Below are positions 9,070 through 42,504 of a DNA stretch of 51,506 nt, in pieces. Positions within the stretch are counted from its first letter, which is position 1. Each line of letters begins with the position of its first letter. The stretch comes from a virus, in the IMG/VR virus record IMGVR_UViG_3300045988_081631, one strand, 5' to 3'. Under the pieces are notes generated by a model. The model worked only from the letters and a program-made list of their open reading frames with translations, ran no database searches and was not told the origin of the DNA. A program made the translations under genes and the position numbers.

Positions 9070-9456
9070 TTAGTACTCGATTACGCTGAATGAGAGATTT
9101 CCGATGCTGTCCACGCCATTTGGTGCCCATACGCAATCCCACTCTCTATCACCCGCGTAACAGGTACGAGTTACAATCCCGCCTTGCGAAGGGTCAGGGC
9201 AGGTAAACTCAAAGCTATCGCCTTTTACCTTCGCAAGAATTTTTGTGATCATATCCCAGTCGATGTTCTTCCATTTGATTTTAACCGGATGTTTGATTGC
9301 AACCATCGTCCTATGGAGATATCCTGTTGCGTCGCGCTCTGCCGACGTATCCAACGAGCTTTCCGTTCCGCTGTACTCGGTAGGGTCTGGGATAAGCTCG
9401 CCGTTGACAGCAAAACGCATATCATATCGATAATCGCGCTGCGCTCTCACGCTCAA
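9070..9456 (-). CDS. distal tail protein-like (small)
   Basis: Lies immediately after the tape measure. The start codon is uncertain (TTG 9456, GTG 9450 or a later ATG). Confidence 0.5.
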   Translation of the reverse strand: MSVRAQRDYRYDMRFAVNGELIPDPTEYSGTESSLDTSAERDATGYLHRTMVAIKHPVKIKWKNIDWDMITKILAKVKGDSFEFTCPDPSQGGIVTRTCYAGDREWDCVWAPNGVDSIGNLSFSVIEY

Positions 9457-12400: not shown

Positions 12401-13535
12401 AAGCAACCTTTTGAGCGATGGACATGCTTGACCACTTTGCTGTAATGCCTTTTGACAAGGCATATTCTTCCATCGCCGCTTTTGACAACTCAACACCATA
12501 GCGACGCATGCCTTCAACTTCGCCCGAAATGCCCGATTGAATCCGCTTCATGACGGTATCAACATCCTTGATATTAAAAGCCGACTGCATATCATAGCCA
12601 AGCTGTGTAAGCTGCTGGGACATGTTATTAGCCGTCTTATCTGGGATGCCAAAAGCCTGTAACTGCTGGTTGAACGTGCTCAGTTCCGACAGCCATTCCG
12701 TCATGTTGATTCCGGCAACCGATTCGACCTTCTGCGCATACTCAACGGCCTTCTGTGATCCGCTGCCCATAGCAACATCCGCAAGGTTCAAGGCTTCGAT
12801 GTAGTCGTTGCTTGCTTCAAAGGCGTCCATGGCTGCATCCTTGATTTTGCTGAATCCGTAAGCAAGTGCTGAAAATTTCAGAATCCTCTTTAGGTAGTCT
12901 CCAAATGTTTTCTTTGATTCCTCCGCGCTTTTGGTAAGTTTTTCATTTGCCTTGATGGCCTTTCGTATGTTGGCAGGCAACGAGCTGAAGCCCTCCTTGA
13001 CCGCGCGCATTTCATCTGCAAGCGGCTGAATGGCTTTTCTAATCTGTTCAACGCTGTCCGCAAACTTCTGAAGCTGTGTCGAATCAATATCAGCAACCGC
13101 TTTCATGGCGTCCGGCATTTTCCGAAGCGTGTTGACCACATTATTTAGGTTATTGGCTTTTTGGATATTGCCAAGCGGAGAAAGTTTATCGGAAAGTTCA
13201 GCAAGGGGCGACCAGTCCACACCTTGAAGAGACCTTGTTGCGTCACCAATACCCTTGATCTGCGAAGCCCAAGAAGTACTAAGCTTGATTTTGTCGAGTA
13301 CACCCATCTTTGTGAGTGCGTCACTCATCATATTCAGCTTGGAAATGGACTCCGAATCCAAAATCGCGGCCGAATCCCGAATCGCTTTGATGCCAGCGGA
13401 AACGGCGTTCAGACTTCGTTGGTTCGATGCTGCTGACCGAAGACTTTCAAGGGATTTGACCATTGAATCAATTCCGCTCTTGGCTTGCGCGGCATTTCCA
13501 TCAATCTCGATAATGAGCTTGTCAACCGTCGCCAT
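9453..13535 (-). CDS. tail tape measure protein
   Basis: 1360 aa, helical and low-complexity, with a central glycine-rich/TM block (GSGGGGGGAGGGALG). Position is after the G/GT chaperones. Confidence 0.9.
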   Translation of the reverse strand: MATVDKLIIEIDGNAAQAKSGIDSMVKSLESLRSAASNQRSLNAVSAGIKAIRDSAAILDSESISKLNMMSDALTKMGVLDKIKLSTSWASQIKGIGDATRSLQGVDWSPLAELSDKLSPLGNIQKANNLNNVVNTLRKMPDAMKAVADIDSTQLQKFADSVEQIRKAIQPLADEMRAVKEGFSSLPANIRKAIKANEKLTKSAEESKKTFGDYLKRILKFSALAYGFSKIKDAAMDAFEASNDYIEALNLADVAMGSGSQKAVEYAQKVESVAGINMTEWLSELSTFNQQLQAFGIPDKTANNMSQQLTQLGYDMQSAFNIKDVDTVMKRIQSGISGEVEGMRRYGVELSKAAMEEYALSKGITAKWSSMSIAQKVALRYNKIMEQTSNIQGDLARTIITPANSLRIFYNQCAIATRYIGQIVSVIAAKLIPIFQAVVVVIGRAAQAIASIFGFSLPSIGGMETDLKGAVGGASDLEQALGGAGSAAKDAAKEVKGLLAGWDEINIIQQESDKAGSGGGGGGAGGGALGDLWGLGDYSYDFLKGIKEQVNDIIEKIESFKPEILGLLGAISAFAIGNKIAKIAEYLGASKDALAAIHQLTAGVALTIVGISLTWDAVNGIVNGEGWTWENMLKAVAGAFLEIPGLSMIGSSAAKLMGLENISSLGFGIGAYIAITSATVAFALAKKMGKNGITKEDVIGAVISTINAGVGAGFATAAMGASWPIVLTVGSIVAISVGIATLHFYARKKTENMVAEALKEAGNGDFSMDSVINAVQKEFSSRLAEAQVTFGIYADFTKTKEDLQTATESVKNLNSTVFGSDAPTPEDIKALKDAWSDFDTALKGTTDNAFALSFEGINTMIDSEIETLQEKGKEFQKQYMIMQQGMTEYQAETAQKRNEIINKIAKGSATNEEMDWYNQHAQSAINVREERRWSELMENPFTVDFNSEDGLVSAKEYVEKINSMSAEVKEAYQTAYKEQIEAQEYLKDLAYERYNSGDWTKTEYDRTVSLIDEVTDGITQAYDAKVGDLSSETSTLMTNLFTQFLSPDALNKFIPDSAWTANDANRRMQEYVSNTISPFIQSIEDAGSVSDTDLQKFKLVEQLMKGAIATTDQGVLYGQASYGLQLQDVIQAALGGAFTLEELTNTSFGTDMDAIVQRVKEFKDSLVGEDANLTLPAIDTATEFDPSLEETKSYVETTWNPDMTEATKITAASPDMSNITNAMNSTLSMGRQWNTAMTNLLNLSGTSRRGGKIGISMTALKYADGGFPSEGSLFIANEQGPELVGQIGSQSAVANNGQIVDGIARGVADANREQNTYYQRMISLLEQLNRKENNVVVKPSPELGKTVSRSVKMYESVRGY

Positions 13536-18925: not shown

Positions 18926-19072
18926 TCAGTTTTCAGCGATAGGCTCTTTGCTTTTGAGCTTTCGCGTGATATCTACGACGACAACATTGTCCTTCTCGCG
19001 CTTCACCGTCGCTTCTCCGCGGTTATTCAGAATCGCTTCGATTGCTTCCACTGTCGCCCTGCCCAGCTTCAT
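18926..19072 (-). CDS. small hypothetical protein (48 aa) overlapping the portal 3' end
   Basis: GGAGG RBS before ATG 19072; MKLGRATVEAIEAILNNRGEATVKREKDNVVVVDI.. Confidence 0.35.
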   Translation of the reverse strand: MKLGRATVEAIEAILNNRGEATVKREKDNVVVVDITRKLKSKEPIAEN

Positions 19073-20462
19073 CCCTGTTGCCTCCTGTTTCTTTGTCCTT
19101 CTGTTCGTTATACCACTCCATACCGCGAGTGTATGCGTCCTCGGCATCCGGCGTGATATCGCTGACTTGATAGGCAATCTGCGGATGAACCTTGTCATTC
19201 GCAAGAAGCGTCGTCAGCACAGTGGCCTTTGTGCCGATATCCTCATAGTTCCGTCGCGTAAACTTGCCGACTACATCTTCCGAGTTCAAATCCAGATCGC
19301 CAAGCTTTTTACAGATTCTCAAAGCGGCATTCAAGAATCGCTTGTCGGAATACTCCCAGAGTGTGGCCGTATCCTTTGCCCGTGCTTCTGCATGATACCA
19401 TCCGTTCCGAACGATGGTGCTGCCGTTGTTCGAGCTGTCCGACGTGTTGCCGTCACCTGTGCTGGGCATCCCGACAATCGTCAGAATATCCTTGTAAATA
19501 TCGTTTGCTAGGACCTGCTGATCCGCCTGCTGTAAATCAACGGCTACCGCCTTGATGGAGGGCGTCGAAGCATTTGGAACGGTTTTGGTAAAAACAAACG
19601 CTGACGGCTGGCTTTTCAATTTCGTCTGCTGTTCATCTGTCAGCGTGATGTCATTAAACCACATCAGGCTTTGAACGTTTTGCTCTGTGGCCTCAATTCG
19701 ATTGCTTTCAAGCACATTTGCGGCGTTCATCAGGTCGATCACCTGTTCAAATGCACCTAAGCGGAACTCGTTGTTGACGTATTCAATAATCGGATTGGAA
19801 CCAATCAGGTTTTTTTCTTCCTCTACAGTGTTTCCGTCGATGGTGAAGTGACTATCATCGGTGTACACATCGTAGATATTGCGTTTTCTCCCGTCCTTGC
19901 CCTTTTTGTTGACATAGGTCACGGAGAACACTGGTTCGCTGTCCCTGTATGGCGCATTTTCATAGGCGACAAACGTATTCATAGGGTCAAGCGTTCGGAG
20001 AATGAACGGCACACCATTTTTGTCCTCATTGGGATACACAAAGCGGTATGCAACGCCGCAAATGGAGAAATCATCTGCGAGCCGCTTGTCTGACGCGTGC
20101 TTTCCCGCCAGATACATATAATCGTTCAGCTTGTTAATCCTGCCAGTCAGCTTTGCGCCCTTGCTTCGGCTGACATAAACGACAGGAGCGCCCAAAAGGT
20201 AGGAAACTTTGAAGGTGACAATTTCGGACGCACGGTTTACAACTGTGTTATGAACGATATCCGGTCTTACCGTCTTGCATCTGTCGCAAATCGGCTGACC
20301 ACCGCGGAAATACTTGAACAGATAGTCAATTTCTGTTTTGTTCTGAATATGCACAGTCATCGCCTTGTTCACAGCATCTTTGACATTTTCTGCATTTATG
20401 GATGTGTAATCCGTCAAAATTTCACGCCGTCCGAACAGTTTCAAAGCGTTCCCTCCCTTCAT
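19023..20462 (-). CDS. portal protein
   Basis: 479 aa immediately after terL; SPP1 gp6-like size and an acidic C-terminus. Confidence 0.85.
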   Translation of the reverse strand: MKGGNALKLFGRREILTDYTSINAENVKDAVNKAMTVHIQNKTEIDYLFKYFRGGQPICDRCKTVRPDIVHNTVVNRASEIVTFKVSYLLGAPVVYVSRSKGAKLTGRINKLNDYMYLAGKHASDKRLADDFSICGVAYRFVYPNEDKNGVPFILRTLDPMNTFVAYENAPYRDSEPVFSVTYVNKKGKDGRKRNIYDVYTDDSHFTIDGNTVEEEKNLIGSNPIIEYVNNEFRLGAFEQVIDLMNAANVLESNRIEATEQNVQSLMWFNDITLTDEQQTKLKSQPSAFVFTKTVPNASTPSIKAVAVDLQQADQQVLANDIYKDILTIVGMPSTGDGNTSDSSNNGSTIVRNGWYHAEARAKDTATLWEYSDKRFLNAALRICKKLGDLDLNSEDVVGKFTRRNYEDIGTKATVLTTLLANDKVHPQIAYQVSDITPDAEDAYTRGMEWYNEQKDKETGGNRDEAGQGDSGSNRSDSE

Positions 20463-20519
20463 TTTTCCTTTCCTTGATTATATAAAAGAATAAACTCTAT
20501 TTCAATTCGTGCGACAGCT

Positions 20520-20554
20520 AATCACACAAAACTGTGTCTACTTTTTGTGTGATT
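20520..20554. repeat. perfect 12-bp inverted repeat overlapping the terL stop
   Basis: aatcacacaaaa-11 nt-ttttgtgtgatt. Confidence 0.8.
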
Positions 20555-22184
20555 ACCACAGTCTATCCATTAGAAAGACCTTGACAGCCGTCGATTGATC
20601 CATTTCGATGGCCTGCGCCAAACTGTCCGGCGCATCGTCATTTTTGTTCTTGCCGATCATTTTGAATGAAAACACGTTTTGCATAAAAAGCTGATATTCC
20701 TTTGACCTCTTTCCTTCCGCAAGGAAAATCATTCTTTCCCGAATATCCGGAGCTTTGTCAAAAATGCGTTGTGCTTTTCCGCCGATTGTGATTGCAGTCG
20801 TCTTTGTCGTTAAGTTAATCCTCTTGTTCTGTGCTTTCAAAAGCTCTTCTACGCCCTCTGCATAAGCAATGGTTGTTTTATTCGCCTCAAACTGCAAAGC
20901 CGCCACATCGTTGTTTATGACACTTTCAGCGACAAGCTGCTGAGTTGTCCTCTTATCCCCGTTGTTGTAAACCACGGCAGGAACATAAATATCATTGCCA
21001 TACTTCACGCAAACAGGCCCGGCAACAAAGTCGCCTCCGCCCCACGCGGGATCAACCGCCATGAATATCCTGTCCGGCACACTGTCTGGCAACTCACCGT
21101 TGTAGTAACGGAAATCGTCAGGCTCAAACACTGCCCCGTCACGCTCAATCGGCGCACCCATGTACTGGGCAAACCACGAGGCCATATCATTATTCCGTTC
21201 AAACGACGCACGCCTCTGCTGGTAGACTTCGGTTGAGAATCCCACGCCGTAGAGATAGTCAAAGTTGCTTTCGTCGTTCTCATCCAGTGCAGGAAGATTG
21301 ATAATTCGATACCGATGATCCCTGAACTTCTCGCTGTTCATGATTGTGTCGATCCTTAATCCAATCGGATCAAGCAATGACCATCGCGTACCGCACCACA
21401 GAATCTTTGCATTTCCCTTCGCGCGGGACAGCATGTTGTTATCCACTTTGCCCCACGCAGAAATCAGGCGGTCTTTACTCATCGCTTCTTCAATGCCGCT
21501 CAACAGGTCGTCCGACATCAAAATGCCGTCAACGTCAACGCTGCCGTTCAGCGTTCCGTATAGCGAACGGCACGTCAGCGACGCATAGCGCTTGTTCCGG
21601 TCAATGTTCAGCGTTTCCATCTTGCTGTTTGTTGACGCGACCTCTTTCCCCGGAAATATCTCTTTCCACAGGTATGTTTTGGGGTCGTTCAGAATTTCCA
21701 TAACGCCATTATAGAACGCGTTTGTAATGTTGTCCGAATACGCGCAATACAGGTTAGAGCGCTCGCTATCCCGGCCAATCGCCCACGTCATGTAGAACAT
21801 GAGAATCGACGTTTTTCCAACGCGCGGCGGCATGGACAGGAACAGTTCGTCCAACCGATCATCCGCCAAATCCTGCAAAGCTTCAACAAGCGCGAGCAGT
21901 GTCTTTCTGCGCGGCAGGTAGAATTTCTCCTCCGGCTTTCTATTCCACTCCAGATACAGCAGATAGCTGTCAAAATCCTTTGGAGCCGCCCACTTATAGG
22001 TTTCCTTCACCAGCTCATACGCGGCCATATCGCCACGCACGGCCAGTCTTTCGGCATACTTCCGCGCTTCCTTGCACAAAGCCAAATCATCCGTATTTTG
22101 CGCCATACTGAACAGCATCGCCACATTATCCAGCTTCCCCATATCCGACGCTCTAAGCCGCTCTATGATCTCCTGATCTGTCAT
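20553..22184 (-). CDS. terL: terminase large subunit
   Basis: 543 aa. Walker A-like MPPRVGKTS, then an acidic motif, then the C-terminal nuclease region. Confidence 0.9.
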   Translation of the reverse strand: MTDQEIIERLRASDMGKLDNVAMLFSMAQNTDDLALCKEARKYAERLAVRGDMAAYELVKETYKWAAPKDFDSYLLYLEWNRKPEEKFYLPRRKTLLALVEALQDLADDRLDELFLSMPPRVGKTSILMFYMTWAIGRDSERSNLYCAYSDNITNAFYNGVMEILNDPKTYLWKEIFPGKEVASTNSKMETLNIDRNKRYASLTCRSLYGTLNGSVDVDGILMSDDLLSGIEEAMSKDRLISAWGKVDNNMLSRAKGNAKILWCGTRWSLLDPIGLRIDTIMNSEKFRDHRYRIINLPALDENDESNFDYLYGVGFSTEVYQQRRASFERNNDMASWFAQYMGAPIERDGAVFEPDDFRYYNGELPDSVPDRIFMAVDPAWGGGDFVAGPVCVKYGNDIYVPAVVYNNGDKRTTQQLVAESVINNDVAALQFEANKTTIAYAEGVEELLKAQNKRINLTTKTTAITIGGKAQRIFDKAPDIRERMIFLAEGKRSKEYQLFMQNVFSFKMIGKNKNDDAPDSLAQAIEMDQSTAVKVFLMDRLW

Positions 22185-22193
22185 ATTCCCTCC

Positions 22194-22224
22194 AAAACAA
22201 AAAGCCGCAGTTTCTCACTACGGC
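22194..22224 (-). terminator. intrinsic terminator ending a few nt upstream of the terL RBS
   Basis: Minus strand GCCGTAG-TGAGAAA-CTGCGGC TTTTTGTTTT GGAGGGAATATG. The stem has a G.U pair only in minus-strand RNA. Confidence 0.65.
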
Positions 22225-22242
22225 TCTACGGAAATATAAAGA

Positions 22243-22268
22243 GGGCCGCAGTCCAATGACTACGACCC
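22243..22268 (-). promoter_or_regulatory. upstream hairpin related in sequence to the terL terminator (possible attenuator partner)
   Basis: Minus strand GGGGTCGTAG-TCATTGGA-CTGCGGCCC. It shares CGTAG and CTGCGGC with the terminator arms. Confidence 0.45.
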
Positions 22269-22312
22269 CTATTAGTCGTCTACGAGCACCCTATTGCGCT
22301 GATTTGATTATA

Positions 22313-23164
22313 TCATTCCTGCTTTTCTTCGTCAACTTTCATCCGTGCTTCCTCGATCAGCGGTTTATGGTACTTTTCCTCCGCTTCTTCTCTGACAGCT
22401 ATTGCATCTGACAAACGGCTGTAAAGGCCAATGGTTTTCTTCTCCCCGTTTACGCCAATCGTCACGCCCCAGCCTTTCTTCCTGCTGTTCCAGAATACAC
22501 CCTTTCGCCCTGACTTATTATTCTTAGATGTTTTCCGCATCAGCTGGTACACGTTGGAGTGTTCCACATCGCCCAAATGCAGCCGCCTGTGCATCTCTTT
22601 CACTACGTCCGCATTTGCACACCCGCATGACACAGCGCGTCCACGTTTAAGGTCTGTTCCGCTTGCCAATCGTTCCTTTCCACAGTCGCAGACACAGCGG
22701 TACATCATGTTTCCCGCCTCGCCGCTATTGCACTGCTTAATATCTGTCCGTTCGACGACCGTCAACCGTCCAAACCGCTTGCCGATAAGTTCCTGTTCAA
22801 GCATCTTTCCTCTTCGCTTACAACCACAGGACACGCTTGCGCCACTCACCAGCTTTGCCGCCCGCACACTAACCTCTTTACCGCAATCGCATCTGCAAAC
22901 ATAGCTCACTGTCTTCTGCGTTTCATCCCTGTGTAAGACTGTCAGATACCCGAACCTCTTTCCCGTTAAATCCGGCAGTCTATTTTGACATCCGCAGGAC
23001 GTTGTATGCCCGCTTCGCAGATTTCCAAGCCTATATTCCTTCATGCTGCCGCACAGCAGGCATTTCGCCTCGCACATCGGGATTGTTCGAGGCGGCTTGC
23101 CCGGTCTAAGATACGGCGCACGCCACTCTCGGATTACCTCAAGATTGCCATAGCGTGTGCCCAT
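22313..23164 (-). CDS. Zn-ribbon-repeat protein with a C-terminal AP2-like DNA-binding domain
   Basis: Three modules G(K)RFGxLTV...C.CDCG....SCGC, then GVFWNSRKKGWGVTIGVNGEKKTIGLYSRLSDAIAVREEAE (AP2-like). Confidence 0.7.
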   Translation of the reverse strand: MGTRYGNLEVIREWRAPYLRPGKPPRTIPMCEAKCLLCGSMKEYRLGNLRSGHTTSCGCQNRLPDLTGKRFGYLTVLHRDETQKTVSYVCRCDCGKEVSVRAAKLVSGASVSCGCKRRGKMLEQELIGKRFGRLTVVERTDIKQCNSGEAGNMMYRCVCDCGKERLASGTDLKRGRAVSCGCANADVVKEMHRRLHLGDVEHSNVYQLMRKTSKNNKSGRKGVFWNSRKKGWGVTIGVNGEKKTIGLYSRLSDAIAVREEAEEKYHKPLIEEARMKVDEEKQE

Positions 23165-23610
23165 AGAATCACCCCTTTTTGTTCTTGCAGGTGCTCACGG
23201 GGTCTACCCCGCGCGTCAGCCGCTACCCCCTTATTACCCCCGCCGGGGTATCCCCGCGCGCGTGTCTCGGTGCGTGTGCCGCCTGTATGGGGCATATACG
23301 CCGCGCATCCTTCCCACGGCTGTTGATGTGGCCGCCGTGAACGTGTGCCCCGGTGGATGTGTCGCCATCTGTGCGCGCTGTCTGCATCATATCGGCAGGC
23401 CGTCAGCCGCTCCCGCTATCACCCGCAGGCAGACCGCCGACGGGAACACCTGCCGCGCATCATCTGCCGGGCGTGTCCACCGCGCCGCCGGACATCCGCG
23501 CGCCTCTTGTATCAGTCAAGCCCCGGCAGGCCGTGAAGCGCGCCGGGGCTGGTTGTCGTGTGTCTGGCGCTGTCATCCTCTGACAGCTGCCGCCGTCGTC
23601 CGCGATCTGC

Positions 23611-23871
23611 TCACGGCGTGGGCGCGTCGCCCTCGTGATCTTCGGCGCGCCCCTCTACGGGCTTGCCCGTCTTGGGGTCGTATCCGTCCGCGATCATGCA
23701 CCGCGCAATACACCGCCGCATCATTGTAGCGCGCGGAAGCCCAAGCGCCGCCGCGTATGCGTCGAGGGCTGCGCGGTCATCTGGCGAAAGCTGTATAGTG
23801 ATCTGCCGCGCCCCGCTTATCTCCCTGTATCGCGCATTAGCGGCCATCTGTGCGGCCTTATCGTATGCCAT
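23611..23871 (-). CDS. ribbon-helix-helix (CopG/Arc-like) DNA-binding protein
   Basis: 86 aa. ARQITIQLSPDDRAALDAYAAALGLPRATMMRRCI fits a beta-strand plus two helices. Confidence 0.6.
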   Translation of the reverse strand: MAYDKAAQMAANARYREISGARQITIQLSPDDRAALDAYAAALGLPRATMMRRCIARCMIADGYDPKTGKPVEGRAEDHEGDAPTP

Positions 23872-23888
23872 CGTATCACCTCCATATA

Positions 23889-23917
23889 ATAATAACGCAT
23901 GCGTTAAAAAAAGTCAA
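23889..23917 (-). promoter_or_regulatory. putative promoter of the RHH gene, with a 14-bp palindromic operator (23893..23906) in its spacer
   Basis: TTGACT-17-TATTAT on the minus strand. The palindrome is taacgcatgcgtta. The leader to the ATG would be very short. Confidence 0.5.
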
Positions 23918-23936
23918 TAATAATTCGCAAAAACTC

Positions 23937-23965
23937 TTGACAATCGCTAATAGTAGTGTTATAAT
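23937..23965 (+). promoter_or_regulatory. consensus sigma-A type promoter driving the GC-rich plus-strand island
   Basis: TTGACA (23937..23942), 17-nt spacer, TATAAT (23960..23965). Confidence 0.75.
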
Positions 23966-24117
23966 ATAGGTGTCAAGAGGAAAGAGGAAAGGCCGACGGG
24001 CGGCCGCCTCCCCGGTGCTATGAGTGAGACGCAACCGCGACACGACGAGCGCACAGGAGCCAGGGCACGAGCCGGGAAAAGCCCGAAATGAAGCCGAAAA
24101 GGCAAGGAGAGAAAACC

Positions 24118-24399
24118 ATGAATAAACTTAAGATGCGAGATGCTTTCAATCGTAACGCGTGGAAATACCTGACCGCCGCCGAGCGCCGCGCGCAACTCAA
24201 AGTTGAGCAGGCCAAGGAGTGCAGCGGCCTGCGCCGCTATCCCAGCACTTGCAGCGCCGTACTGGCCCGCATCCCTGCCGAGTGGTGGGGCAAGTACAAC
24301 GCCGAACACATCGGCGAGGTGATGCGGCTGCTGAAAGCCGCCTACGATGACGGACGGCAGCACCCAAGCCCTGACGAGTGGGAAAAAATCCGCTACTAA
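24118..24399 (+). CDS. hypothetical protein (93 aa), island gene 1
   Basis: AAGGAGAG RBS; GC-rich third codon positions. Confidence 0.6.
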   Translation: MNKLKMRDAFNRNAWKYLTAAERRAQLKVEQAKECSGLRRYPSTCSAVLARIPAEWWGKYNAEHIGEVMRLLKAAYDDGRQHPSPDEWEKIRY

Positions 24400-24509
24400 C
24401 TCCACCCGATGAGAGCCGGACGGCAACCGGCCGAAACGCCGCCCCACGTGGCGCGCGTCGTGGAAAGCCACAAAAAAGCCCCCAAGCGGGGGCGGGAGGT
24501 ATGAAGATT

Positions 24510-24872
24510 ATGAAAAAGTATATTATCAATCCGATTCCGGGCACTATGCGCGTCGATTTCGACAAATCCAGCGCAAAAGGCGAAAAAATCCGCGTCACCC
24601 TGTCCCGTGGCACTGACACCGGCGTGAAAGACAGTCTGCCCGCCCTGTGGGTAAAGCACGGTTTCACCGCGTCCCGGCTATCGGACTGGTGGAACGTCGA
24701 GGTTGTGGCGACTGCCCCGGACGGTACGGAACACCACCGCTACAACCCGCAGACGGCGCGGAATCGCAAAATAGATTTTGCGTGGATGCTCCCCGCGACC
24801 GAGGAGAACGCGCAGAAAATTTTTGACGAAATCGCCCGCCGCGCGGGTATTGTGTGGGAGGTTGCCGCATGA
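24510..24872 (+). CDS. hypothetical protein (120 aa), island gene 2
   Basis: GGGAGG is 10 nt before ATG 24510 (ATG 24501 is too close to the RBS). Confidence 0.6.
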   Translation: MKKYIINPIPGTMRVDFDKSSAKGEKIRVTLSRGTDTGVKDSLPALWVKHGFTASRLSDWWNVEVVATAPDGTEHHRYNPQTARNRKIDFAWMLPATEENAQKIFDEIARRAGIVWEVAA

Positions 24873-25144
24873 GCGAAACCATGTTAGCGGCAAACGTCGC
24901 CGCAATCGTCGCGATCCGCGCCCAAATTGAGGCGCTGAAAAACCAGCTTTGCCCGCTTGAGGATGCCGTCAAGATCGAGATGGCCGAGCGGAACGCCGAG
25001 GAGATCACCGCCGCCGGGCACGTTGTCCGCTGGAAGGTCGTAACCTCTAAGCGGCTCGACACCGCCGCGCTGAAAAAGGCGCTGCCGGAGATCGTCGAGC
25101 AGTACACCAAGGAGGCGCGCGCCTGCCGCTTTACGGTGGATTAA
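24869..25144 (+). CDS. hypothetical coiled-coil protein (91 aa), island gene 3
   Basis: ATGA overlap with gene 2; GGGAGG RBS. Confidence 0.6.
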   Translation: MSETMLAANVAAIVAIRAQIEALKNQLCPLEDAVKIEMAERNAEEITAAGHVVRWKVVTSKRLDTAALKKALPEIVEQYTKEARACRFTVD

Positions 25145-25253
25145 AAAACGGGTGTATGAGTATGGCGACTCATACACCCAAGCGCCGCCCCACTACGACA
25201 TAAGGCCGACGCGGTTATTATATCACCCGCGCGGCAGAAAGGCAAGGAAAGCA

Positions 25254-25517
25254 ATGAATAACTTTGAAAATTTTAATGGCTGCTGGGCTGTTTTTTGCGA
25301 ACTCGACGCGGAAGATTGCGACGACCGCCGCGCGCGCGTCTCGGTTGTGGGTGCTTTTGCCTACCCCTGCAACGCAGAGGACTTTATCCGGCTTTGCATC
25401 CCGGCGGAAAATCGCGACCGCTTCCGCATCTGCCGGGTTTCCGACCTGCCGCAGGTGCGGGAGGATATCGCCGCCGGTATGGGCGAGAGCCCCAAGGCAT
25501 ACAAGCCGATATTTTGA
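25254..25517 (+). CDS. hypothetical protein (87 aa), island gene 4
   Basis: RBS AAGGAAAG; start MNNFENFNGCW. Confidence 0.55.
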   Translation: MNNFENFNGCWAVFCELDAEDCDDRRARVSVVGAFAYPCNAEDFIRLCIPAENRDRFRICRVSDLPQVREDIAAGMGESPKAYKPIF

Positions 25518-25629
25518 CGAGCCGAAACAAGCCCCCCATGTGGGGGCTTGTCCGTCGGGAACAGCCGCCCGGCGCTGATGATGGCAGGCTAACACACTAC
25601 GACAGCCCAGACGGGCGGGAGGTTGCATC

Positions 25630-26712
25630 ATGTATCAAGAGACCAAAGCCGACACCCTGCGCATTTTGGCGCACGGACTCCGCGTCAACGGCGCAAAGAC
25701 GCTTGTGAAATGCTGGTACAGCATCGACGGCGACAAAACGCAAATCTATGCGCGCAGCTACTCCGACAAGCTCCCGCGCGACATCCTGCCCGTGCAGAAT
25801 GATACCGACATCATGACAGATTATTTTGACGAGGACAGCGCTACGCTTTCCGCCGAACATCCGCTCTATCCCTTCTTCCGCGCGGCGGCAATCCGGGAAA
25901 AGCTGGCATTTGCCAAAAAGCACCCGGCACATAACGCCACGATTGACAGCGCCCGCGCCGAAGAGGCCGCGCGCCTGTCCGCCGAGCTGGAGACGCTGCC
26001 GAGCGGTCAGCCCACCCCCGCAGACGTTGACCGCGCCCGCGCATACATGGACGCGCAGCGCAGAGCGGCGGCGGAAGCGGAAGAGCGCGCCCGCCGTGAA
26101 GAGTGGGAGCGCAGCGCAGAGGTGGAGCGGCAAAAAGAGCAGGACGCGCGCGAGACCATCGCCGCAGCTGTCGCGGCTTATCCGCTCAAGGACGGTGCGC
26201 CCTATGTCGTCATCAGATGGAGCGAGCACCCCGGCATTGATGAGGGCTTGGCGCTTTCCGTCGCCGCCGCTGATCTGGTGCTATCCCATCTTGACGAGGT
26301 GCAGCACGCGCGCCGCGTGAATGATGGGTTGCGTGGGTATGATAAGACGGCGTTTGTCGTCCACTACACCAAGGGCGGCGAGCCGCTGACCTTTGCCGAC
26401 CGCTACGACATCGGCGACGGTATCGGCGGACTGATCGAGGCTATCCGGCACTATGATAGCAATCTAGCCGAGATGCTGGAGGCATACGGCCCCGCCTTCA
26501 CCGCGCCCGCCGAGCAAGCGAGCACGGAAGCCGCCGGGCGTGTCCTGTCCTTTGCCGTCTGCAAGACCGCCCACGAGTATAAGCAGATGGACGCCGCCGC
26601 CGACAGTATAGCCGGGCTGCTGCTGGACATCCTCGGCGCTTCCGCGCCCCATCTGCCCACGCGACAGGCTACCCCGCAGCCATCCGGGCGCGTGCTTGCC
26701 TTCCACCGCTGA
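25630..26712 (+). CDS. hypothetical 360-aa protein, island gene 5. The C-terminal part resembles accessory domains seen on conjugative-element polyvalent proteins
   Basis: GGGAGG RBS. Central Arg/Glu/Ala coiled coil. C-terminal YVVIRWSEHPGIDEGLAL... The domain assignment is recollection only. Confidence 0.6.
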   Translation: MYQETKADTLRILAHGLRVNGAKTLVKCWYSIDGDKTQIYARSYSDKLPRDILPVQNDTDIMTDYFDEDSATLSAEHPLYPFFRAAAIREKLAFAKKHPAHNATIDSARAEEAARLSAELETLPSGQPTPADVDRARAYMDAQRRAAAEAEERARREEWERSAEVERQKEQDARETIAAAVAAYPLKDGAPYVVIRWSEHPGIDEGLALSVAAADLVLSHLDEVQHARRVNDGLRGYDKTAFVVHYTKGGEPLTFADRYDIGDGIGGLIEAIRHYDSNLAEMLEAYGPAFTAPAEQASTEAAGRVLSFAVCKTAHEYKQMDAAADSIAGLLLDILGASAPHLPTRQATPQPSGRVLAFHR

Positions 26713-26935
26713 CCCTTCCGCCTGCCTGTTTGCGGTGTTTCCCCTTGTCCGGGTTCCCTTCATCGGCATACCTGGCAGGGGTATTCTTTCCGTGGCGGTC
26801 TGCCAGCGGGCTACTTCCGCCAGAATACACGCACATTTCACGCGTAATATGGCAAGTTAGCGGGGCGATTCTACAAAATCCCGTTCAAAAGCACCCCCGT
26901 ACCTTTTTTGAGCGCGAAAAATTTGCTTCCAGATT

Positions 26936-26982
26936 TTTTCTGAAAATTTTGGTTTCGCAAAATTGGCTAGGGAATTTGAAAA
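26936..26982. repeat. about 47-nt imperfect direct repeat, copy 1 (partner 27770..27817)
   Basis: ttttctgaaaattttggtttcgcaaaattggctagggaatttgaaaa versus ttttcctgaaaattctgatttcgaaaaatggctggaggagtttgaaaa. Confidence 0.8.
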
Positions 26983-27304
26983 AAGTTTTTGATATTGTGC
27001 ATAACGCATCACACAAACGCATACGCTATAACCGCAGAGATCGAAACGCTCCCCAGCGCTCTTCTAAAGCCCTTTTTACCCTCTTTCCTTGTTTCTGTTC
27101 AAATCTGCGTACTTGTCACAATACGTTGTCAATCGGTATCAAAAAACGCGCCTTTATACCTTCCGTTCCCTTCTAAATCGACATAATTTTGTCACAGTTG
27201 CAGATATGAACCGATTCCGACACTTTCAGCCTTGAAAGTGTGCAAATCCCACGGGGAAAGTGTACAACTTTTTCCTCATTTCAAGCATAACATGGGGGTA
27301 TTCT

Positions 27305-27583
27305 ATGATGCAAAATTCATCCGAAATCCTGCTTCCGCTGTCCGTCTATCAAAACTGTGGGCGATTTGAACAATCAGATTTGAGCGCTCACGCCATGTAC
27401 TACATTGTTTTCGCCTATCACGAGGGCACCGGCGACCGCTTCCGCCTGTCCTATCTGGTTTCCCCTCTGTATGACGAGCTGGAGGAAGCCGTTAAAGCTG
27501 GGGAGATCACAGACCGAGAAGCACGTGCTCGTGTGATAGGCTCTATTCGCTGGGATATGCCGTCCAGCGTAGAGACAGACTAA
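27305..27583 (+). CDS. hypothetical protein (92 aa)
   Basis: In-frame ATG 27305 after GGGGGT. Bracketed by the 47-nt repeats and followed by a terminator. Confidence 0.5.
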   Translation: MMQNSSEILLPLSVYQNCGRFEQSDLSAHAMYYIVFAYHEGTGDRFRLSYLVSPLYDELEEAVKAGEITDREARARVIGSIRWDMPSSVETD

Positions 27584-27720
27584 AGGCCTTTCCAGCCTGC
27601 CTTTTTCCAACCCTTCAACCATACCGTCCAGCAGGCAGAAGCGCCCACAGACGGCGCAGAACCGCCGTAGAACAATTCCGGTTTCTGCAAGTTATCGCTT
27701 ATTTTCTCAAAAATATCAAG

Positions 27721-27758
27721 AAAAAATCGACCTCAGCTTTTTCAGAGGTCGATTTTTT
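27721..27758. terminator. bidirectional intrinsic terminator
   Basis: aaaaaa-tcgacctc-10 nt-gaggtcga-tttttt. Confidence 0.8.
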
Positions 27759-27769
27759 GATTCCTAAAA

Positions 27770-27817
27770 TTTTCCTGAAAATTCTGATTTCGAAAAATGG
27801 CTGGAGGAGTTTGAAAA
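27770..27817. repeat. about 47-nt imperfect direct repeat, copy 2, directly downstream of the terS stop
   Basis: See copy 1. Confidence 0.8.
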
Positions 27818-27821
27818 CTTA

Positions 27822-28439
27822 TCATTCAACTTGCACGTCGTCATCGTCGCCGCCAACACCGAGCTGCTTTACAATCTCCTCGCGGCTCATTGCCGGGTGC
27901 TCGCTTTCGGTGTTCGTGCCGATGTCAACTGTCTGCTTATTGACCAAGCCATAATAATTACATCCGCGAAAGATATACGGAATGGCCGGAATCTTGCCAG
28001 TTGTGACCAAAGTTGCGTCCAAAGTTGCAAGAATCTCTCTAGCCTTTTGGGCGATGTCCTGTGTAGTGAAACCTGATTCCGTGTCCTGAAATCCCTTCAC
28101 CGCCCCCGTAGACCACTGGTGCAGCGTTTTCCGCGAATATCCGCAGTATAGCCCAAGTCCTTCCCACGTCGGCGGGACTTCTTCGTCAATACAGTACCGA
28201 AAATAGTCGTCAATTCTTTCCATCAGTTCTTTGTTGGAGTTCACCTTCTTCATTCTCATGAACCCTGAAACCCTTTGAAGCACACCTGCCATGTAATGTC
28301 TATTCTCATCACTGCTCATGATGATTTTTTCTGCTTGACATTGAGGCGGAACATTTTTCATGCTTGTGAAAGGTTTTGTTTCTTTGTTTGGTTCCTTGAA
28401 CCAAACCTCTCTTTCTGCATCCTTCTTTGTTCTTGCCAT
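27822..28439 (-). CDS. terS: terminase small subunit
   Basis: 205 aa. ELMERIDDYFRYCIDEEVPPTWEGLGLYCGYSRKTLHQW is the typical terS HTH region; acidic tail. Confidence 0.75.
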   Translation of the reverse strand: MARTKKDAEREVWFKEPNKETKPFTSMKNVPPQCQAEKIIMSSDENRHYMAGVLQRVSGFMRMKKVNSNKELMERIDDYFRYCIDEEVPPTWEGLGLYCGYSRKTLHQWSTGAVKGFQDTESGFTTQDIAQKAREILATLDATLVTTGKIPAIPYIFRGCNYYGLVNKQTVDIGTNTESEHPAMSREEIVKQLGVGGDDDDVQVE

Positions 28440-28569
28440 TATTGCTCTCCTTTGCGTTTATTTGCCCTTCTAACTGGATTTGTAATGTTTGATGATAGTT
28501 TTTTCTAGATTCGTTTTTATTCGCGTCCTTCGGCCATTTACGCGCCATGTAGAAATCCGTGGAAAAACT

Positions 28570-28794
28570 CTATTCGCCTTCTTTCATCATGTCTTCCATT
28601 CTGCATCCCAGCCGTTCACAGATTCTCACCCACATCTGCACCTTTCCCGTTGAACCTTTCCCATTTTCCAGCTTCCACAGCGTATTTTTATGTACGCCAC
28701 ATACAATTGCCATCTGTTCCAGCGAATACCCGCTTTCTTTACGCAATCGGTGGAGGTTTTTTCCCATGATCTCCGCAATGTCACTCATAGGCAT
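28570..28794 (-). CDS. XRE-family helix-turn-helix regulator
   Basis: NLHRLRKESGYSLEQMAIVCGVHKNTLWKLENGK. Confidence 0.8.
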   Translation of the reverse strand: MPMSDIAEIMGKNLHRLRKESGYSLEQMAIVCGVHKNTLWKLENGKGSTGKVQMWVRICERLGCRMEDMMKEGE

Positions 28795-28979
28795 TCTCCT
28801 TTCCCTGCTCCCATATTCATGTTAGCAACATTGATTCCATATGGAGGGTCTACAATAGCAAGCTCAAAATACTTATCTGGAAAGTGCTTCATCCCGTCCA
28901 TGCAGTCCATCTTATAAAAACCAAAATCAAGAATATAATCACCTCCTCGCCTTTTTCTGAAACTTTTCCCAGCGCTCAT
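28785..28979 (-). pseudogene. N-terminal remnant of an N6/N4 DNA methyltransferase (stops about 15 aa after the DPPY motif)
   Basis: YKMDCMDGMKHFPDKYFELAIVDPPYGINVANMNMGAGKGECL stop. Full-length enzymes of this type are more than 200 aa. Confidence 0.65.
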
Positions 28980-29130
28980 GACTGCGCTTTCTGCCCATGC
29001 CTTCTATACAAGCTGTGTATCGGTTTTCCAGCGCTTGCTTCCGTCCGTCGGCATACGCCTTGTATCTCTCGCATCCCGCGTGGCAGCCGACCTCGCGGCT
29101 CACGCAGTCGCGGCATGGGGCGTCATTCAC
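28939..29130 (-). CDS. small Cys-rich protein (63 aa)
   Basis: CRDCVSREVGCHAGCERY. Confidence 0.5.
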   Translation of the reverse strand: MNDAPCRDCVSREVGCHAGCERYKAYADGRKQALENRYTACIEGMGRKRSHERWEKFQKKARR

Positions 29131-29456
29131 GGCTTTTTCGCCTCCATGTACTCCGGCAATACCTGCCGCCAGTCTTCAACCCGCATCATCTGCGATGTGC
29201 AGCGCATTGAATCAGTAGAAATCTGCTGGATGACGCGCAGAAATGCGCTCATCCTCTCGTGATCGTCCACCAGCACGCGCACCTCTTCAAACAGCCTTGG
29301 CAGCTTGTTCCAGACGGACGCGATGTTGTCTATCGCCTGCTCGTACGTAATTCCCTTGTCAGTGTGCAGCAACATATTACCGTTCTCAGTTGCAATCCGC
29401 AGATTGCCGACGTTTCGCCAGTCTTTGGCCATCTCGTCCAGTTCTTTATAAGTCAT
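29127..29456 (-). CDS. hypothetical protein
   Basis: ATG 29456 after GGGGGAGG. Confidence 0.5.
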   Translation of the reverse strand: MTYKELDEMAKDWRNVGNLRIATENGNMLLHTDKGITYEQAIDNIASVWNKLPRLFEEVRVLVDDHERMSAFLRVIQQISTDSMRCTSQMMRVEDWRQVLPEYMEAKKP

Positions 29457-29515
29457 TGTGTGTTCGCCTCCCCCGCGTTTCTCTTTTTGCATTTCATCTC
29501 TGCCGCATCAAGCAC

Positions 29516-40461: not shown

Positions 40462-40612
40462 TCTTCTTTCCCTCCTTGTCCATTTCCGCGAGGATGCAGC
40501 ACACCAGCAGCAGCGCCGCACCGACCACGCCAACCGCCAGCGCATACGCAAGCACCATGCCCAGCCCTTCAAGCAGCCGGGCGAAAAAACCGATGAACTG
40601 CGCTTTAAGCAT
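40454..40612 (-). CDS. 52-aa hydrophobic peptide with a charged C-terminus (type I toxin-like)
   Basis: Hand translation MLKAQFIGFFARLLEGLGMVLAYALAVGVVGAALLLVCCILAEMDKEGKKNG. Confidence 0.5.
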   Translation of the reverse strand: MLKAQFIGFFARLLEGLGMVLAYALAVGVVGAALLLVCCILAEMDKEGKKNG

Positions 40613-40640
40613 TGATATTTCATCCTTTCTGTGCTATAAT
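40612..40640 (+). promoter_or_regulatory. near-consensus plus-strand promoter with an extended -10
   Basis: TTGATA-17 nt (ending TGC)-TATAAT. Confidence 0.6.
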
Positions 40641-40645
40641 AGCCA

Positions 40646-42475: not shown

Positions 42476-42504
42476 ATTATACGCTTCTAAGTTACCTTTG
42501 TCAA
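42476..42504 (-). promoter_or_regulatory. early lytic promoter (perfect consensus)
   Basis: Minus strand TTGACA-17-TATAAT. Confidence 0.8.

What the first reader, a model, noticed from the sequence alone, without database searches (positions are those of the whole stretch)
22185..27821. terS and terL are separated by about 5.6 kb of inserted, partly opposite-strand DNA
terS (27822..28439) and terL (20553..22184) are normally adjacent. Here five things lie between them: a bidirectional terminator right after terS; a plus-strand ORF bracketed by 47-nt repeats; a five-gene GC-rich plus-strand island with its own consensus promoter; an RHH gene and a Zn-ribbon/AP2 gene on the minus strand; and a terminator in front of terL. 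Late transcription from terS would have to cross about 3.8 kb antisense to the island. The packaging module has therefore been invaded, and terL probably depends on a separate promoter or on antitermination.
Basis: partly seen in the sequence, partly recalled or inferred. Interest (0 to 1): 0.7.

Follow-up and report, generated by a model that had tools for sequence, protein, structure and literature searches.

The report
Accessory gene locus splitting phage terminase genes
In this prophage, and in most of its relatives, the two DNA-packaging genes terS and terL are separated by a terminator-bounded slot of swappable, mostly opposite-strand accessory genes that includes a self-cleaving hammerhead ribozyme, so the split is a normal feature of the lineage and not a one-off invasion.

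Summary
terS (27822..28439, Pfam GP3_package above cut-off) and terL (20553..22184) lie 5,637 bp apart.

The "invasion" reading is only partly right. Six close relatives from independent assemblies keep the same arrangement. Among 38 relatives that carry both genes, 25 have a gap of 3.4-6.7 kb with different, mostly opposite-strand content, and 12 have a gap of 0.9 kb or less. The terS-terL junction is therefore a lineage-wide slot for accessory genes.

The slot is bounded by terminators. A terminator sits just upstream of terL in 21 of 23 split loci and in 0 of 11 unsplit loci.

New findings:
- A type II hammerhead ribozyme (25520..25593, 50.5 bits) lies just upstream of the LPD25 gene.
- Two unrelated relatives each carry two pistol ribozymes in their opposite-strand cassettes.
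- The stretch upstream of terL, a near-consensus promoter followed by two terminators, is the best-conserved non-coding piece (95-99%). This suggests terL has its own promoter under antitermination control.

The function of the cargo is unknown; a role in phage-host conflict or lysogeny is inferred. This is a new variant of a known kind (a moron-type accessory locus) and is moderately interesting.

The parts
27822..28439 (-). terS (small terminase subunit, P22 gp3-like), probably the last gene of the long minus-strand early/middle transcription unit
   Evidence: Pfam GP3_package 37 bits (cut-off 29.4) and phrog_606 at 1.6e-11. Family members abut terL in L027, L044 and L045. Substitutions fall mainly at third codon positions, 9/6/109.
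27761..27817 (.). Direct repeat, copy B, between terS and the terminator
   Evidence: 47 of 58 aligned columns are identical to copy A. The copy is kept in L001, L059, L060, L064, L065 and L066.
27721..27758 (.). Bidirectional intrinsic terminator shared by terS (minus strand) and the plus-strand accessory operon
   Evidence: Perfect 14-nt inverted repeat with a 10-nt loop, flanked by A6 and T6. Scored as a terminator in both directions, -16.1 and -14.6 kcal/mol.
27305..27583 (+). p92, small accessory gene of unknown function lying between the two repeat copies
   Evidence: Called as a 92-aa gene in L059 and L064-L066. Third-position substitution bias 16/23/83. No family match.
26713..27259 (.). 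AT-richer non-coding spacer containing direct repeat copy A (about 26927-26982)
   Evidence: No codon periodicity in substitutions, 58/53/49. No gene called here in relatives. L001 has about 300 extra bp here.
25630..26712 (+). LPD25-domain protein (360 aa), the constant core gene of the accessory operon, fast evolving
   Evidence: Pfam LPD25 7.6e-18. 161 non-synonymous against 127 synonymous codon changes among close relatives. AlphaFold model with pLDDT 78 has no fold match.
25520..25593 (+). Type II hammerhead self-cleaving ribozyme. It starts 2 nt after the p87 stop codon and ends 36 nt before the LPD25 start codon. The predicted cut is after GUC at about 25552.
   Evidence: Rfam RF02276 at 50.5 bits (cut-off 37), full-length match with the CUGAUGA, GAAA and GUC core. 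Present in L001 and L064-L066 above the cut-off and seen by alignment in L059.
25254..25517 (+). p87, a variable small ORF, present in the window and in L059/L060 but absent in L001 and L064-L066
   Evidence: No family match.
24869..25144 (+). p91, a conserved small accessory gene
   Evidence: phrog_6244 at 2.6e-10 and phrog_1956. Third-position bias 4/6/48.
24088..24872 (+). Promoter-proximal variable ORFs p103 (24088-24399) and p123 (24501-24872), exchanged for other small ORFs in close relatives
   Evidence: Window 24516-24857 is replaced in L001, L059 and L060. L064-L066 carry other ORFs here.
23889..23965 (.). Back-to-back promoters: the operon promoter at 23937-23965(+), a 12/12 match with TG, and the RHH promoter at 23917..23889(-), a 10/12 match. 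A 14-nt palindrome TAACGCATGCGTTA at 23893-23906 is a candidate operator.
   Evidence: The operator role is inferred.
23611..23871 (-). Probable RHH DNA-binding protein, candidate regulator of the divergent promoters
   Evidence: Pfam RHH_1 at 18.6 bits, just below the cut-off, and DUF6290. Third-position bias 7/5/35.
23165..23610 (.). GC-rich (0.67) non-coding spacer of unexplained function
   Evidence: No periodicity in any minus-strand frame. No gene called in relatives. No Rfam match. Fold z-score only -2.05.
22313..23164 (-). Protein with Zn-ribbon repeats and an AP2-like DNA-binding domain (283 aa) but no HNH nuclease domain. It is a separately mobile gene module.
   Evidence: phrog_374 at 1e-44. 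The matches to phrog_99 and phrog_4578 cover only residues 209-276, and there is no Pfam HNH hit. More than 3,000 homologues, some with PF00847. An 80% homologue sits in a different phage next to lysis genes, and the DNA homology ends at window 22347. Length varies among relatives: 186, 283 and 331 aa.
22185..22346 (-). terL leader. It holds a sigma-70-like promoter TTGACG-17-TG-TATAAT (22335..22307), then two intrinsic terminators (22269..22242 and 22227..22201), then the ribosome-binding site and ATG. The motif CGUAG occurs four times.
   Evidence: The leader is 95-99% identical in five relatives compared, where flanking genes are 81-91%. It is one of six strong promoter sites in the window. 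CGTAG occurs 4 times in 128 nt, against 20 in the whole minus strand.
20553..22184 (-). terL (large terminase subunit), first gene of the structural gene block
   Evidence: phrog_38 at 1e-52 and Pfam Terminase-T7_RNaseH-like at 5.5e-5. Portal follows at 19023..20462.

Best explanation
The 5.6 kb between terS and terL is a modular accessory locus of the moron type. It occupies a docking site that has been kept for a long time at the boundary between two lytic transcription units of a temperate siphovirus of gut Clostridia.

Shown by sequence and comparison:
- terS ends at a bidirectional terminator.
- terL is preceded by its own conserved, near-consensus promoter followed by two terminators.
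- Between them lie at least four independently exchangeable modules: the Zn-ribbon/AP2 gene; a GC-rich block made of an RHH gene and a divergently transcribed five-gene plus-strand operon; the hammerhead-LPD25 unit within that operon; and p92 flanked by repeats.
- The same slot in other lineages holds different opposite-strand cassettes.

Inferred:
(a) The plus-strand operon is transcribed by host RNA polymerase from its perfect sigma-70 promoter, on the same strand as the CI-like repressor and integrase genes. That means expression in lysogeny and/or immediately after infection, under RHH control.
(b) The hammerhead cuts the polycistronic RNA 77 nt upstream of the LPD25 start codon. This gives that mRNA a fixed 5' end whatever genes lie upstream, so the ribozyme acts as an insulator between modules.
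(c) The terminators on both sides keep accessory-locus transcription out of terS and terL in the lysogen.
(d) Late expression of terL starts at its own promoter, or arrives from upstream, and needs antitermination at the two leader terminators.
(e) The cargo acts in phage-host or element-element conflict. This rests on LPD25 being a domain of conjugative-element polyvalent proteins and on its fast evolution.
For: Gene identities.

Anatomy.

Conservation. Six close relatives keep the arrangement. Across 38 relatives the gap is 0.9 kb or less in 12, 2 kb in 1, and 3.4-6.7 kb in 25. The split state is found on almost all deep terL branches.

Gap content. It differs between lineages and is mostly opposite-strand just after terS: an FtsK-like ATPase in 14 loci, and GP88. 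A same-strand HTH gene and a small serine recombinase precede terL in 16 or more loci.

Terminators. One lies just before terL in 21 of 23 split loci and 0 of 11 unsplit loci (Fisher p about 3e-7, loci not independent). Most split loci also have a terminator after terS.

Leader. It is 95-99% conserved, more than its flanking genes.

Transcription units. A perfect early promoter at 42504..42476(-) has no convincing minus-strand terminator before terS. CI and integrase are on the plus strand.

Ribozymes. The hammerhead scores above the Rfam cut-off in the window and in four close relatives, and is aligned in a fifth. The mosaic breakpoint lies exactly at its 5' edge. Pistol ribozymes sit in the opposite-strand cassettes of L020 and L026 and nowhere else in about 470 kb of relatives' loci scanned. 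The hammerhead and three of the four pistols lie 21-45 nt upstream of a clear start codon.

Literature. LPD25 belongs to conjugative-element polyvalent proteins, with solo versions in phages (PMC5512222). Hammerheads flanking single genes in prophages, including the anti-restriction gene ardA, are described in PMC3088659.
Against: - There are no expression data. Every promoter, terminator and ribozyme activity is a sequence prediction.
- No cargo protein has a demonstrated or even a predicted biochemical function. PADLOC, NCBIfam, PDB and Foldseek all gave nothing.
- No antiterminator or late activator was recognised among the ten early ORFs tested.
- The Zn-ribbon/AP2 gene moves independently of terL, so it is a poor candidate for that role.
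- The high GC of the island is within the range seen elsewhere in the same prophage (0.57-0.59 for DnaB and the tail-fibre genes). Composition alone does not prove foreign origin.
- The insulator idea rests on a single presence/absence event, that of p87.
Confidence: 0.66

Rival explanations
1. A recent, one-off invasion of an originally compact terS-terL module in this particular phage.
For: The compositional contrast: GC 0.57-0.67 against 0.47-0.50. The autonomous promoter and terminator. terS abuts terL in L027, L044 and L045.
Against: Six close relatives from different samples share the whole arrangement. The next relative, L004 (70% terL identity), already has a 4.7-kb gap with different content. 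25 of 38 relatives are split, across nearly all deep branches.
Confidence: 0.07
2. The 27822..28439 product is not the working small terminase. The true DNA-recognition partner would be encoded right next to terL (the Zn-ribbon/AP2 DNA-binding protein here, the HTH or recombinase genes in relatives), so the packaging module is not really split.
For: The gene directly upstream of terL encodes a DNA-binding protein. The terS profile found no significant PDB relative.
Against: The Pfam GP3_package match is above its cut-off, and phrog_606 agrees. The family is present in every relative where the contig reaches far enough, whereas the gene upstream of terL changes identity. The family overlaps or abuts terL where there is no cassette. 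An 80% homologue of the Zn-ribbon/AP2 gene lies in a lysis-module context in another phage.
Confidence: 0.07
3. The gap is an integrated, self-mobile element (a satellite or a recombinase-driven cassette) or an invertible segment, not passive cargo.
For: Relatives carry a small serine recombinase plus an HTH gene at the terL side in 16 or more loci. In L004 a perfect 23-nt inverted repeat brackets most of the GP88 gene next to that recombinase. In the window, two 57-nt direct repeats, each with internal dyad symmetry, flank p92.
Against: The window and its close relatives have no recombinase in the gap. No repeats bracket the whole interval. The orientation is the same in all seven assemblies.
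Confidence: 0.1
4. The promoter and double terminator upstream of terL are an independent small-RNA gene of about 65-105 nt, not a control point for terL. terL would be transcribed only by read-through from far upstream.
For: A strong promoter is followed within 30-100 nt by two terminators. The high conservation would suit an sRNA equally well.
Against: The second terminator ends 17 nt before the terL start codon, and relatives with unrelated leaders keep a terminator at the same place. This points to a role tied to terL. The two readings are not exclusive: lambda 6S RNA is both.
Confidence: 0.1

Closest known systems
Morons of lambdoid and other temperate phages (Hendrix/Juhala concept; from my own knowledge)
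   Same: The DNA lies between two genes that are adjacent in related phages. It has its own sigma-70 promoter and terminator and a different base composition. It is oriented with the lysogeny genes and is dispensable-looking cargo.
   Different: It is multi-module (5.6 kb, about 8 genes) and has its own divergent regulator and a ribozyme. It lies between terS and terL rather than among head or tail genes. The slot is conserved across a whole clade and bounded by terminators on both sides.
Cargo genes between TerS and TerL in Ca. Heliusvirales vSUBFAM7 gut prophages (bioRxiv 10.64898/2026.05.11.724261)
   Same: A gut Bacillota prophage lineage with variable inserted genes between TerS and TerL, differing in both insertion site and content.
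   Different: That report describes genus-specific auxiliary metabolic genes. It does not mention opposite-strand operons, terminators or ribozymes. The present phage lacks an ORF large enough for the DNA polymerase I marker gene of that group, so it is probably a different lineage.
Hammerhead, twister and pistol ribozymes flanking genes in prophages (PMC3088659, PMC4604425, PMC6765202)
   Same: The self-cleaving ribozyme sits between genes of one operon in a prophage accessory region. Different ribozyme classes occupy equivalent places. The neighbouring genes vary and are mostly of unknown function; one described case is the anti-restriction gene ardA.
   Different: Here the ribozyme-bearing operons have a defined address: the opposite-strand cassette between terS and terL of one terL clade. 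One recombination breakpoint coincides with the ribozyme edge.
Lambda pR'-tR'-Q late-gene antitermination (from my own knowledge)
   Same: A strong constitutive-looking promoter is followed within about 100 nt by terminators, directly upstream of the late structural genes.
   Different: No Q-family protein was recognised, and no Q-binding element or pause site was identified. The leader carries four CGUAG repeats, which hint at an RNA-binding factor (HutP/TRAP-style logic) rather than a DNA-loaded Q.
HNH endonucleases next to terminase genes (Kala et al. 2014; from my own knowledge)
   Same: The gene is annotated in PHROGs as 'HNH endonuclease' and sits immediately upstream of terL.
   Different: No HNH domain is present. 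The matches cover only the Zn-ribbon repeats and the AP2-like domain. A close homologue is found away from terminase genes.

Membership tests
Small terminase, GP3_package (PF16677) | Profile match above the curated cut-off | tested here: met
   37 bits against a cut-off of 29.4; phrog_606 at 1.6e-11.
Small terminase, GP3_package (PF16677) | Encoded with terL and portal in a packaging module | tested here: met
   The family is always upstream of terL on the same strand. It abuts terL in L027, L044 and L045 and is 0.5-0.9 kb away in 9 further loci.
Small terminase, GP3_package (PF16677) | Binds pac DNA and stimulates TerL | not testable with these tools
   This needs biochemistry.
Moron (autonomous accessory transcription unit in a phage late region) | Flanking genes are adjacent in related phages | tested here: met
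   The gap is 0.9 kb or less in 12 of 38 relatives.
Moron (autonomous accessory transcription unit in a phage late region) | Own promoter and own terminator | tested here: met
   A 12/12 promoter at 23937-23965 and the bidirectional terminator at 27721-27758. This is sequence-level evidence only.
Moron (autonomous accessory transcription unit in a phage late region) | Base composition differs from the neighbours | tested here: met
   GC 0.57-0.67 and GC3 0.68-0.82, against 0.47-0.50 and 0.52-0.61.
Moron (autonomous accessory transcription unit in a phage late region) | Expressed from the prophage | not testable with these tools
   This needs RNA-seq of a lysogen.
Hammerhead ribozyme type II (RF02276) | Covariance-model score above the gathering cut-off, with an intact catalytic core | tested here: met
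   50.5 bits against 37. CUGAUGA, GAAA and GUC are present, and the model is matched over positions 1-66. The match is above the cut-off in four close relatives.
Hammerhead ribozyme type II (RF02276) | Self-cleavage | not testable with these tools
   This needs in vitro transcription or mapping of 2',3'-cyclic-phosphate ends.
Lambda-type Q antitermination module | Promoter followed closely by terminator(s) upstream of late genes | tested here: met
   Promoter at 22335..22307 and terminators at 22269..22242 and 22227..22201, with the terL ATG at 22184.
Lambda-type Q antitermination module | Q-family protein encoded just upstream | tested here: not met
   The upstream gene has no Pfam match and moves independently of terL. 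Ten early ORFs gave no antiterminator family in PHROGs.
Terminase-associated HNH endonuclease | HNH catalytic domain | tested here: not met
   No PF01844 or other nuclease hit at E up to 0.1. The PHROG matches are limited to the Zn-ribbon and AP2-like parts.
Ca. Heliusvirales | Nine marker genes, including DNA polymerase I (PMC11283538) | tested here: inconclusive
   The largest minus-strand ORF between 28.4 and 42.5 kb is 417 aa and is DnaB-like, too short for Pol I. The group's marker HMMs were not available.
Invertible segment (Hin/Gin type) | Invertase gene plus inverted crossover sites flanking the segment | tested here: not met
   There is no recombinase in the window gap, and no inverted repeats bracket the island. 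The feature is met only in relative L004.

The most novel reading that the evidence does not exclude
In a whole clade of gut Clostridia siphoviruses, the terS-terL junction would be a dedicated, terminator-insulated docking site for opposite-strand accessory operons. Their genes would be separated by interchangeable self-cleaving ribozymes (hammerhead II or pistol) acting as natural insulators between modules. terL would be switched on through a new kind of leader: a promoter, two terminators, and CGUAG/UAG repeats bound by an unknown RNA-binding antiterminator. This would give bacterial and phage self-cleaving ribozymes a fixed, comparable genomic address where their function could be tested by deletion.
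Probability: 0.25. Interest if true: 0.7.

Novelty: new variant of a known kind. Interest (0 to 1): 0.5.

Why it matters
1. Annotation. In this lineage the small and large terminase genes are usually several kb apart. Rules that expect them to be adjacent will miss terS or mislabel the gene next to terL.

2. Cargo discovery. The slot is a predictable place to look for new phage cargo, which may include anti-defence, exclusion or phase-variable genes. The slot has clear boundaries.

3. Ribozyme biology. What self-cleaving ribozymes do in bacteria and phages is still an open question (PMC6765202). Here two unrelated ribozyme classes occupy equivalent positions, 21-45 nt upstream of a clear start codon in four of the five cases, in equivalent cassettes of related phages. 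One recombination breakpoint sits at a ribozyme edge. This makes a direct test possible: delete or inactivate the ribozyme and measure the downstream gene.

4. Late-gene control. The conserved promoter plus double-terminator leader of terL is a candidate late-gene switch in a phage group for which no late regulator is known.

Tried and rejected
- Megablast of 19000-29500 against GenBank phages: no match. tblastn with terL gave at most 41% identity, so annotated relatives could not be used.
- The genome-contig scan with terL returned only 3 distant metagenome-assembled genomes (Acutalibacteraceae, Clostridia, Acholeplasmataceae). The host of this prophage is not established.
- PDB sequence searches with the Zn-ribbon protein, terS, terL and a terS profile gave nothing significant.
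- NCBIfam and PADLOC on all gap proteins gave nothing.
- The AlphaFold model of the LPD25 protein (pLDDT 78) had no Foldseek match with E below 0.07 in PDB or BFVD. No function is assigned.
- The 446-nt GC-rich spacer at 23165-23610 has no Rfam hit, a fold z-score of only -2.05, no coding signal, and is no better conserved than its neighbours. It stays unexplained.
- The Zn-ribbon/AP2 protein as a Q-like regulator of terL was rejected as the leading idea. An 80% homologue sits in another phage beside lysis genes, and the DNA homology stops before the leader.
- An invertible or self-mobile element in the window is not supported: no recombinase and no bracketing repeats.
- Pfam on the cassette proteins of L020 and L026 gave no families.
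- The papers by Weinberg et al. 2015 and Roth et al. 2014, which list the ribozyme-associated genes, are not held in the library. I could not check whether terminase genes are on their list.

Full report
**Observation**

The window carries a temperate siphovirus prophage that reads mainly on the minus strand:
- endolysin at 758-1561, a collagen-repeat fibre protein, and a 1360-aa ORF (9453-13535, the likely tape-measure gene judged by size and position);
- portal at 19023-20462 and terL at 20553-22184;
- early genes up to about 42.5 kb;
- a CI-like repressor (42578-43027) and an integrase (45735-47015) on the plus strand.

terS at 27822-28439 matches Pfam GP3_package above its cut-off and the PHROG small-terminase family 606. 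terL matches PHROG 38 at 1e-52. The two genes are 5,637 bp apart.
- the bidirectional terminator at 27721-27758;
- a plus-strand ORF between two direct repeats of about 57 nt (47 of 58 columns identical);
- a GC-rich plus-strand operon behind a perfect TTGACA-17-TG-TATAAT promoter;
- an RHH-like gene and a Zn-ribbon/AP2-like gene on the minus strand;
- two terminators directly in front of terL.

The promoter is not a chance match. Only six sites in the 51.5-kb window reach 11 of 12 matches, against 0.5 expected. They lie at the island operon, the terL leader, upstream of portal, the early lytic promoter, the CI promoter and one further plus-strand site. Substitution patterns among close relatives show third-position bias for terS, terL, the Zn-ribbon gene, RHH, p91, LPD25 and p92. 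There is no such bias in 23165-23610 or 26730-27176, which are therefore non-coding.

**Close relatives**

Six assemblies from different samples (L001, L059, L060, L064, L065, L066) have terL at 91-97% nucleotide identity. All carry terS, the island and terL in the same order with 5.4-5.6 kb between the two genes.

Within the island the promoter-proximal small ORFs are swapped. The window has p103 and p123; the others carry ORFs of 93+57, 147, 78+76+57 or 76 aa. p87 is present or absent. The Zn-ribbon gene varies in length (186, 283 or 331 aa). RHH, p91, the hammerhead-LPD25 unit, p92 and both repeat copies are constant.

**Wider relatives**

A terL search of IMG/VR returned 55 loci. With an HMM of the terS family, 38 loci have both genes on the contig. 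The gap is:
- 0.9 kb or less in 12 loci, truly abutting in L027, L044 and L045;
- 2 kb in one locus;
- 3.4-6.7 kb in 25 loci.

On a terL tree the split state appears on almost every deep branch, and the compact state falls in three subclades.

The content of the gap is not conserved between lineages, but its layout is. Opposite-strand ORFs follow terS: an FtsK/SpoIIIE-like ATPase in 14 loci, GP88-family proteins, and many small proteins without family matches. Same-strand genes precede terL: an HTH protein, a small serine recombinase in at least 16 loci, and a small membrane protein.

A strong hairpin plus T-tract lies just upstream of the terL start in 21 of 23 split loci and in none of 11 compact ones. 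Most split loci also have a terminator, often convergent, just after terS. These loci are phylogenetically related, so the nominal Fisher p of about 3e-7 overstates the evidence. Even so, the pattern recurs in at least eight deep lineages with unrelated leader sequences.

**Ribozymes**

Rfam finds a full-length type II hammerhead at 25520-25593 on the plus strand (50.5 bits, cut-off 37). It starts 2 nt after the p87 stop codon and ends 36 nt before the LPD25 start codon. It scores above the cut-off in L001 and L064-L066 and is seen by alignment in L059.

The sequence upstream of the ribozyme differs between relatives, and the breakpoint lies exactly at its 5' edge.

I scanned 40 relatives' loci, about 470 kb on both strands. 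The only other self-cleaving ribozymes found were two pistol ribozymes in L020 and two in L026. All four lie inside the terS-terL gap, on the opposite strand, between cassette ORFs. The hammerhead and three of the four pistols lie 21-45 nt upstream of a clear start codon; the fourth pistol (L020 5423-5499) overlaps the start of a doubtful 74-aa ORF.

This matches the published picture. Hammerheads flank single genes or short blocks in prophages, for example ardA (PMC3088659). Different ribozyme classes share the same unexplained gene neighbourhoods (PMC6765202, PMC4604425). What this analysis adds is a defined address for such cassettes.

**The terL leader**

The 162 bp upstream of terL contain, in order:
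- TTGACG-17-TG-TATAAT, whose -35 element and TG lie in the last codons and the stop codon of the Zn-ribbon gene;
- two terminators (-20.6 and -15.6 kcal/mol);
- the ribosome-binding site and ATG, starting 17 nt after the second T-tract.

The leader is 95-99% identical in the five close relatives compared, including L064 and L066, where terL is 91% and the Zn-ribbon gene 81-90% identical. CGTAG occurs four times in 128 nt here, against 20 times on the whole minus strand.

The leader belongs to the terL backbone and not to the Zn-ribbon gene. An 80% homologue of that gene lies beside lysis genes in another phage, and the DNA homology ends at window 22347.

There is no room for a promoter between the second terminator and terL, so any terL transcript must pass these terminators. 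The most economical reading is a dedicated late promoter under antitermination control, analogous in layout to lambda pR'-tR'. Neither the factor nor the mechanism is identified. The early lytic promoter at 42504-42476 has no convincing minus-strand terminator before terS. terS therefore probably ends the early/middle transcription unit and terL begins the late one, which would explain why this junction tolerates insertions.

**Cargo function**

Only LPD25 has a family assignment. [quoted passage not shown] The protein evolves fast (161 non-synonymous against 127 synonymous codon changes). Its AlphaFold model (pLDDT 78) has no structural relative.

A distant homologue (40% identity) sits in the lysogeny-side accessory region of another prophage, without a ribozyme.

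No gap protein matches known defence families or curated NCBI families. A role in phage-host or inter-element conflict, expressed from the prophage or immediately after entry, is an inference from context.

**Comparison with what is known, and novelty**

The locus meets the sequence-level criteria of a moron, though it is larger, modular and regulated. A 2026 preprint reports variable cargo between TerS and TerL in one Heliusvirales subfamily (10.64898/2026.05.11.724261), so the split itself is not new. Ribozymes in prophage cassettes are also known.

The new points are:
- the clade-wide slot insulated by terminators on both sides;
- the recurrent opposite-strand orientation of the cassettes;
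- the co-occurrence of two ribozyme classes at equivalent positions in that slot;
- the conserved promoter plus double-terminator leader of terL.

I rate this a new variant of a known kind, with moderate interest.

Noticed in passing
window 25520-25593 (+): A type II hammerhead ribozyme (Rfam 50.5 bits) lies between p87 and the LPD25 gene. It is conserved in the close relatives checked, and the mosaic breakpoint sits at its 5' edge.
   Followed up: yes
L020 5423-5499(-) and 6919-6986(-); L026 7091-7158(-) and 7591-7660(-): Each of these two relatives has two pistol ribozymes (58-66 bits) inside the opposite-strand cassette between terS and terL. No ribozymes were found anywhere else in about 470 kb of relatives' loci scanned.
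   Followed up: partly
window 22185-22312 (-): CGUAG occurs four times in the terL leader, against 20 on the whole minus strand. UAG triplets are spaced about 9-11 nt apart. Two of the CGUAG copies form the 5' arms of the two terminators. This is a possible binding array for an RNA-binding antiterminator.
   Followed up: partly
window 23165-23610: A 446-bp spacer with 67% GC lies between the RHH gene and the Zn-ribbon gene. It has no ORF, no coding signal and no Rfam match, and its fold z-score is -2.05 on the minus strand. It may be a decayed gene. In L064 the neighbouring Zn-ribbon ORF is 48 aa longer.
   Followed up: partly
window 40612-40700 (+): A near-consensus promoter (TTGATA-17-TG-TATAAT) is followed about 30 nt later by a strong plus-strand terminator (40669-40692), antisense to the early lytic genes. 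It is a candidate short antisense RNA, similar in layout to lambda OOP.
   Followed up: no
window 20477-20505 (-): A promoter-like site with 11 of 12 matches lies between terL and portal, only about 8 nt upstream of the portal start codon once the expected transcription start is allowed for. Its function is unclear.
   Followed up: no
window 23893-23906: A perfect 14-nt palindrome TAACGCATGCGTTA lies inside the RHH promoter, between the back-to-back promoters. It is a candidate RHH operator.
   Followed up: no
L004 7366-7388 and 8230-8252; recombinase at 8797-9573(+): A perfect 23-nt inverted repeat brackets 841 bp that contain most of the GP88-family gene, next to a 258-aa serine recombinase. 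Both arms encode PVLFSRL. This looks like an invertible on/off switch inside the terS-terL gap of the next-closest lineage.
   Followed up: partly
L028 and L054, 8615-11263 (+): terL is a single 882-aa ORF with an in-frame insert of about 340 aa right after the Walker A motif (PPRVGK|ALANDT ... THN|T) that carries a LAGLIDADG-like motif. It is most likely an intein.
   Followed up: partly
L067 1719-2576; L064 5171-6166; L066 3876-4436: The Zn-ribbon/AP2 gene is itself mobile and variable. An 80% homologue sits beside holin and endolysin genes in another phage. The number of repeats gives lengths of 186 to 331 aa. The family has more than 3,000 members in metagenomes.
   Followed up: partly
L024 8758-8829 and 9145-9216 (+); L024 13176-13241; L012 11988-12055; L061 68-138: Other RNA genes in relatives: two tRNAs inside the terS-terL gap of L024; an int-alpA RNA downstream of portal in L024 and L012; and a skipping-rope RNA next to an integrase in L061.
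   Followed up: no
L005, L007, L008, L028, L051 (gap between terS and terL): In the 'compact' relatives the remaining 0.5-0.9 kb between terS and terL is extremely AT-rich (22-30% GC) and has no convincing ORF. It may be a packaging or regulatory region.
   Followed up: no
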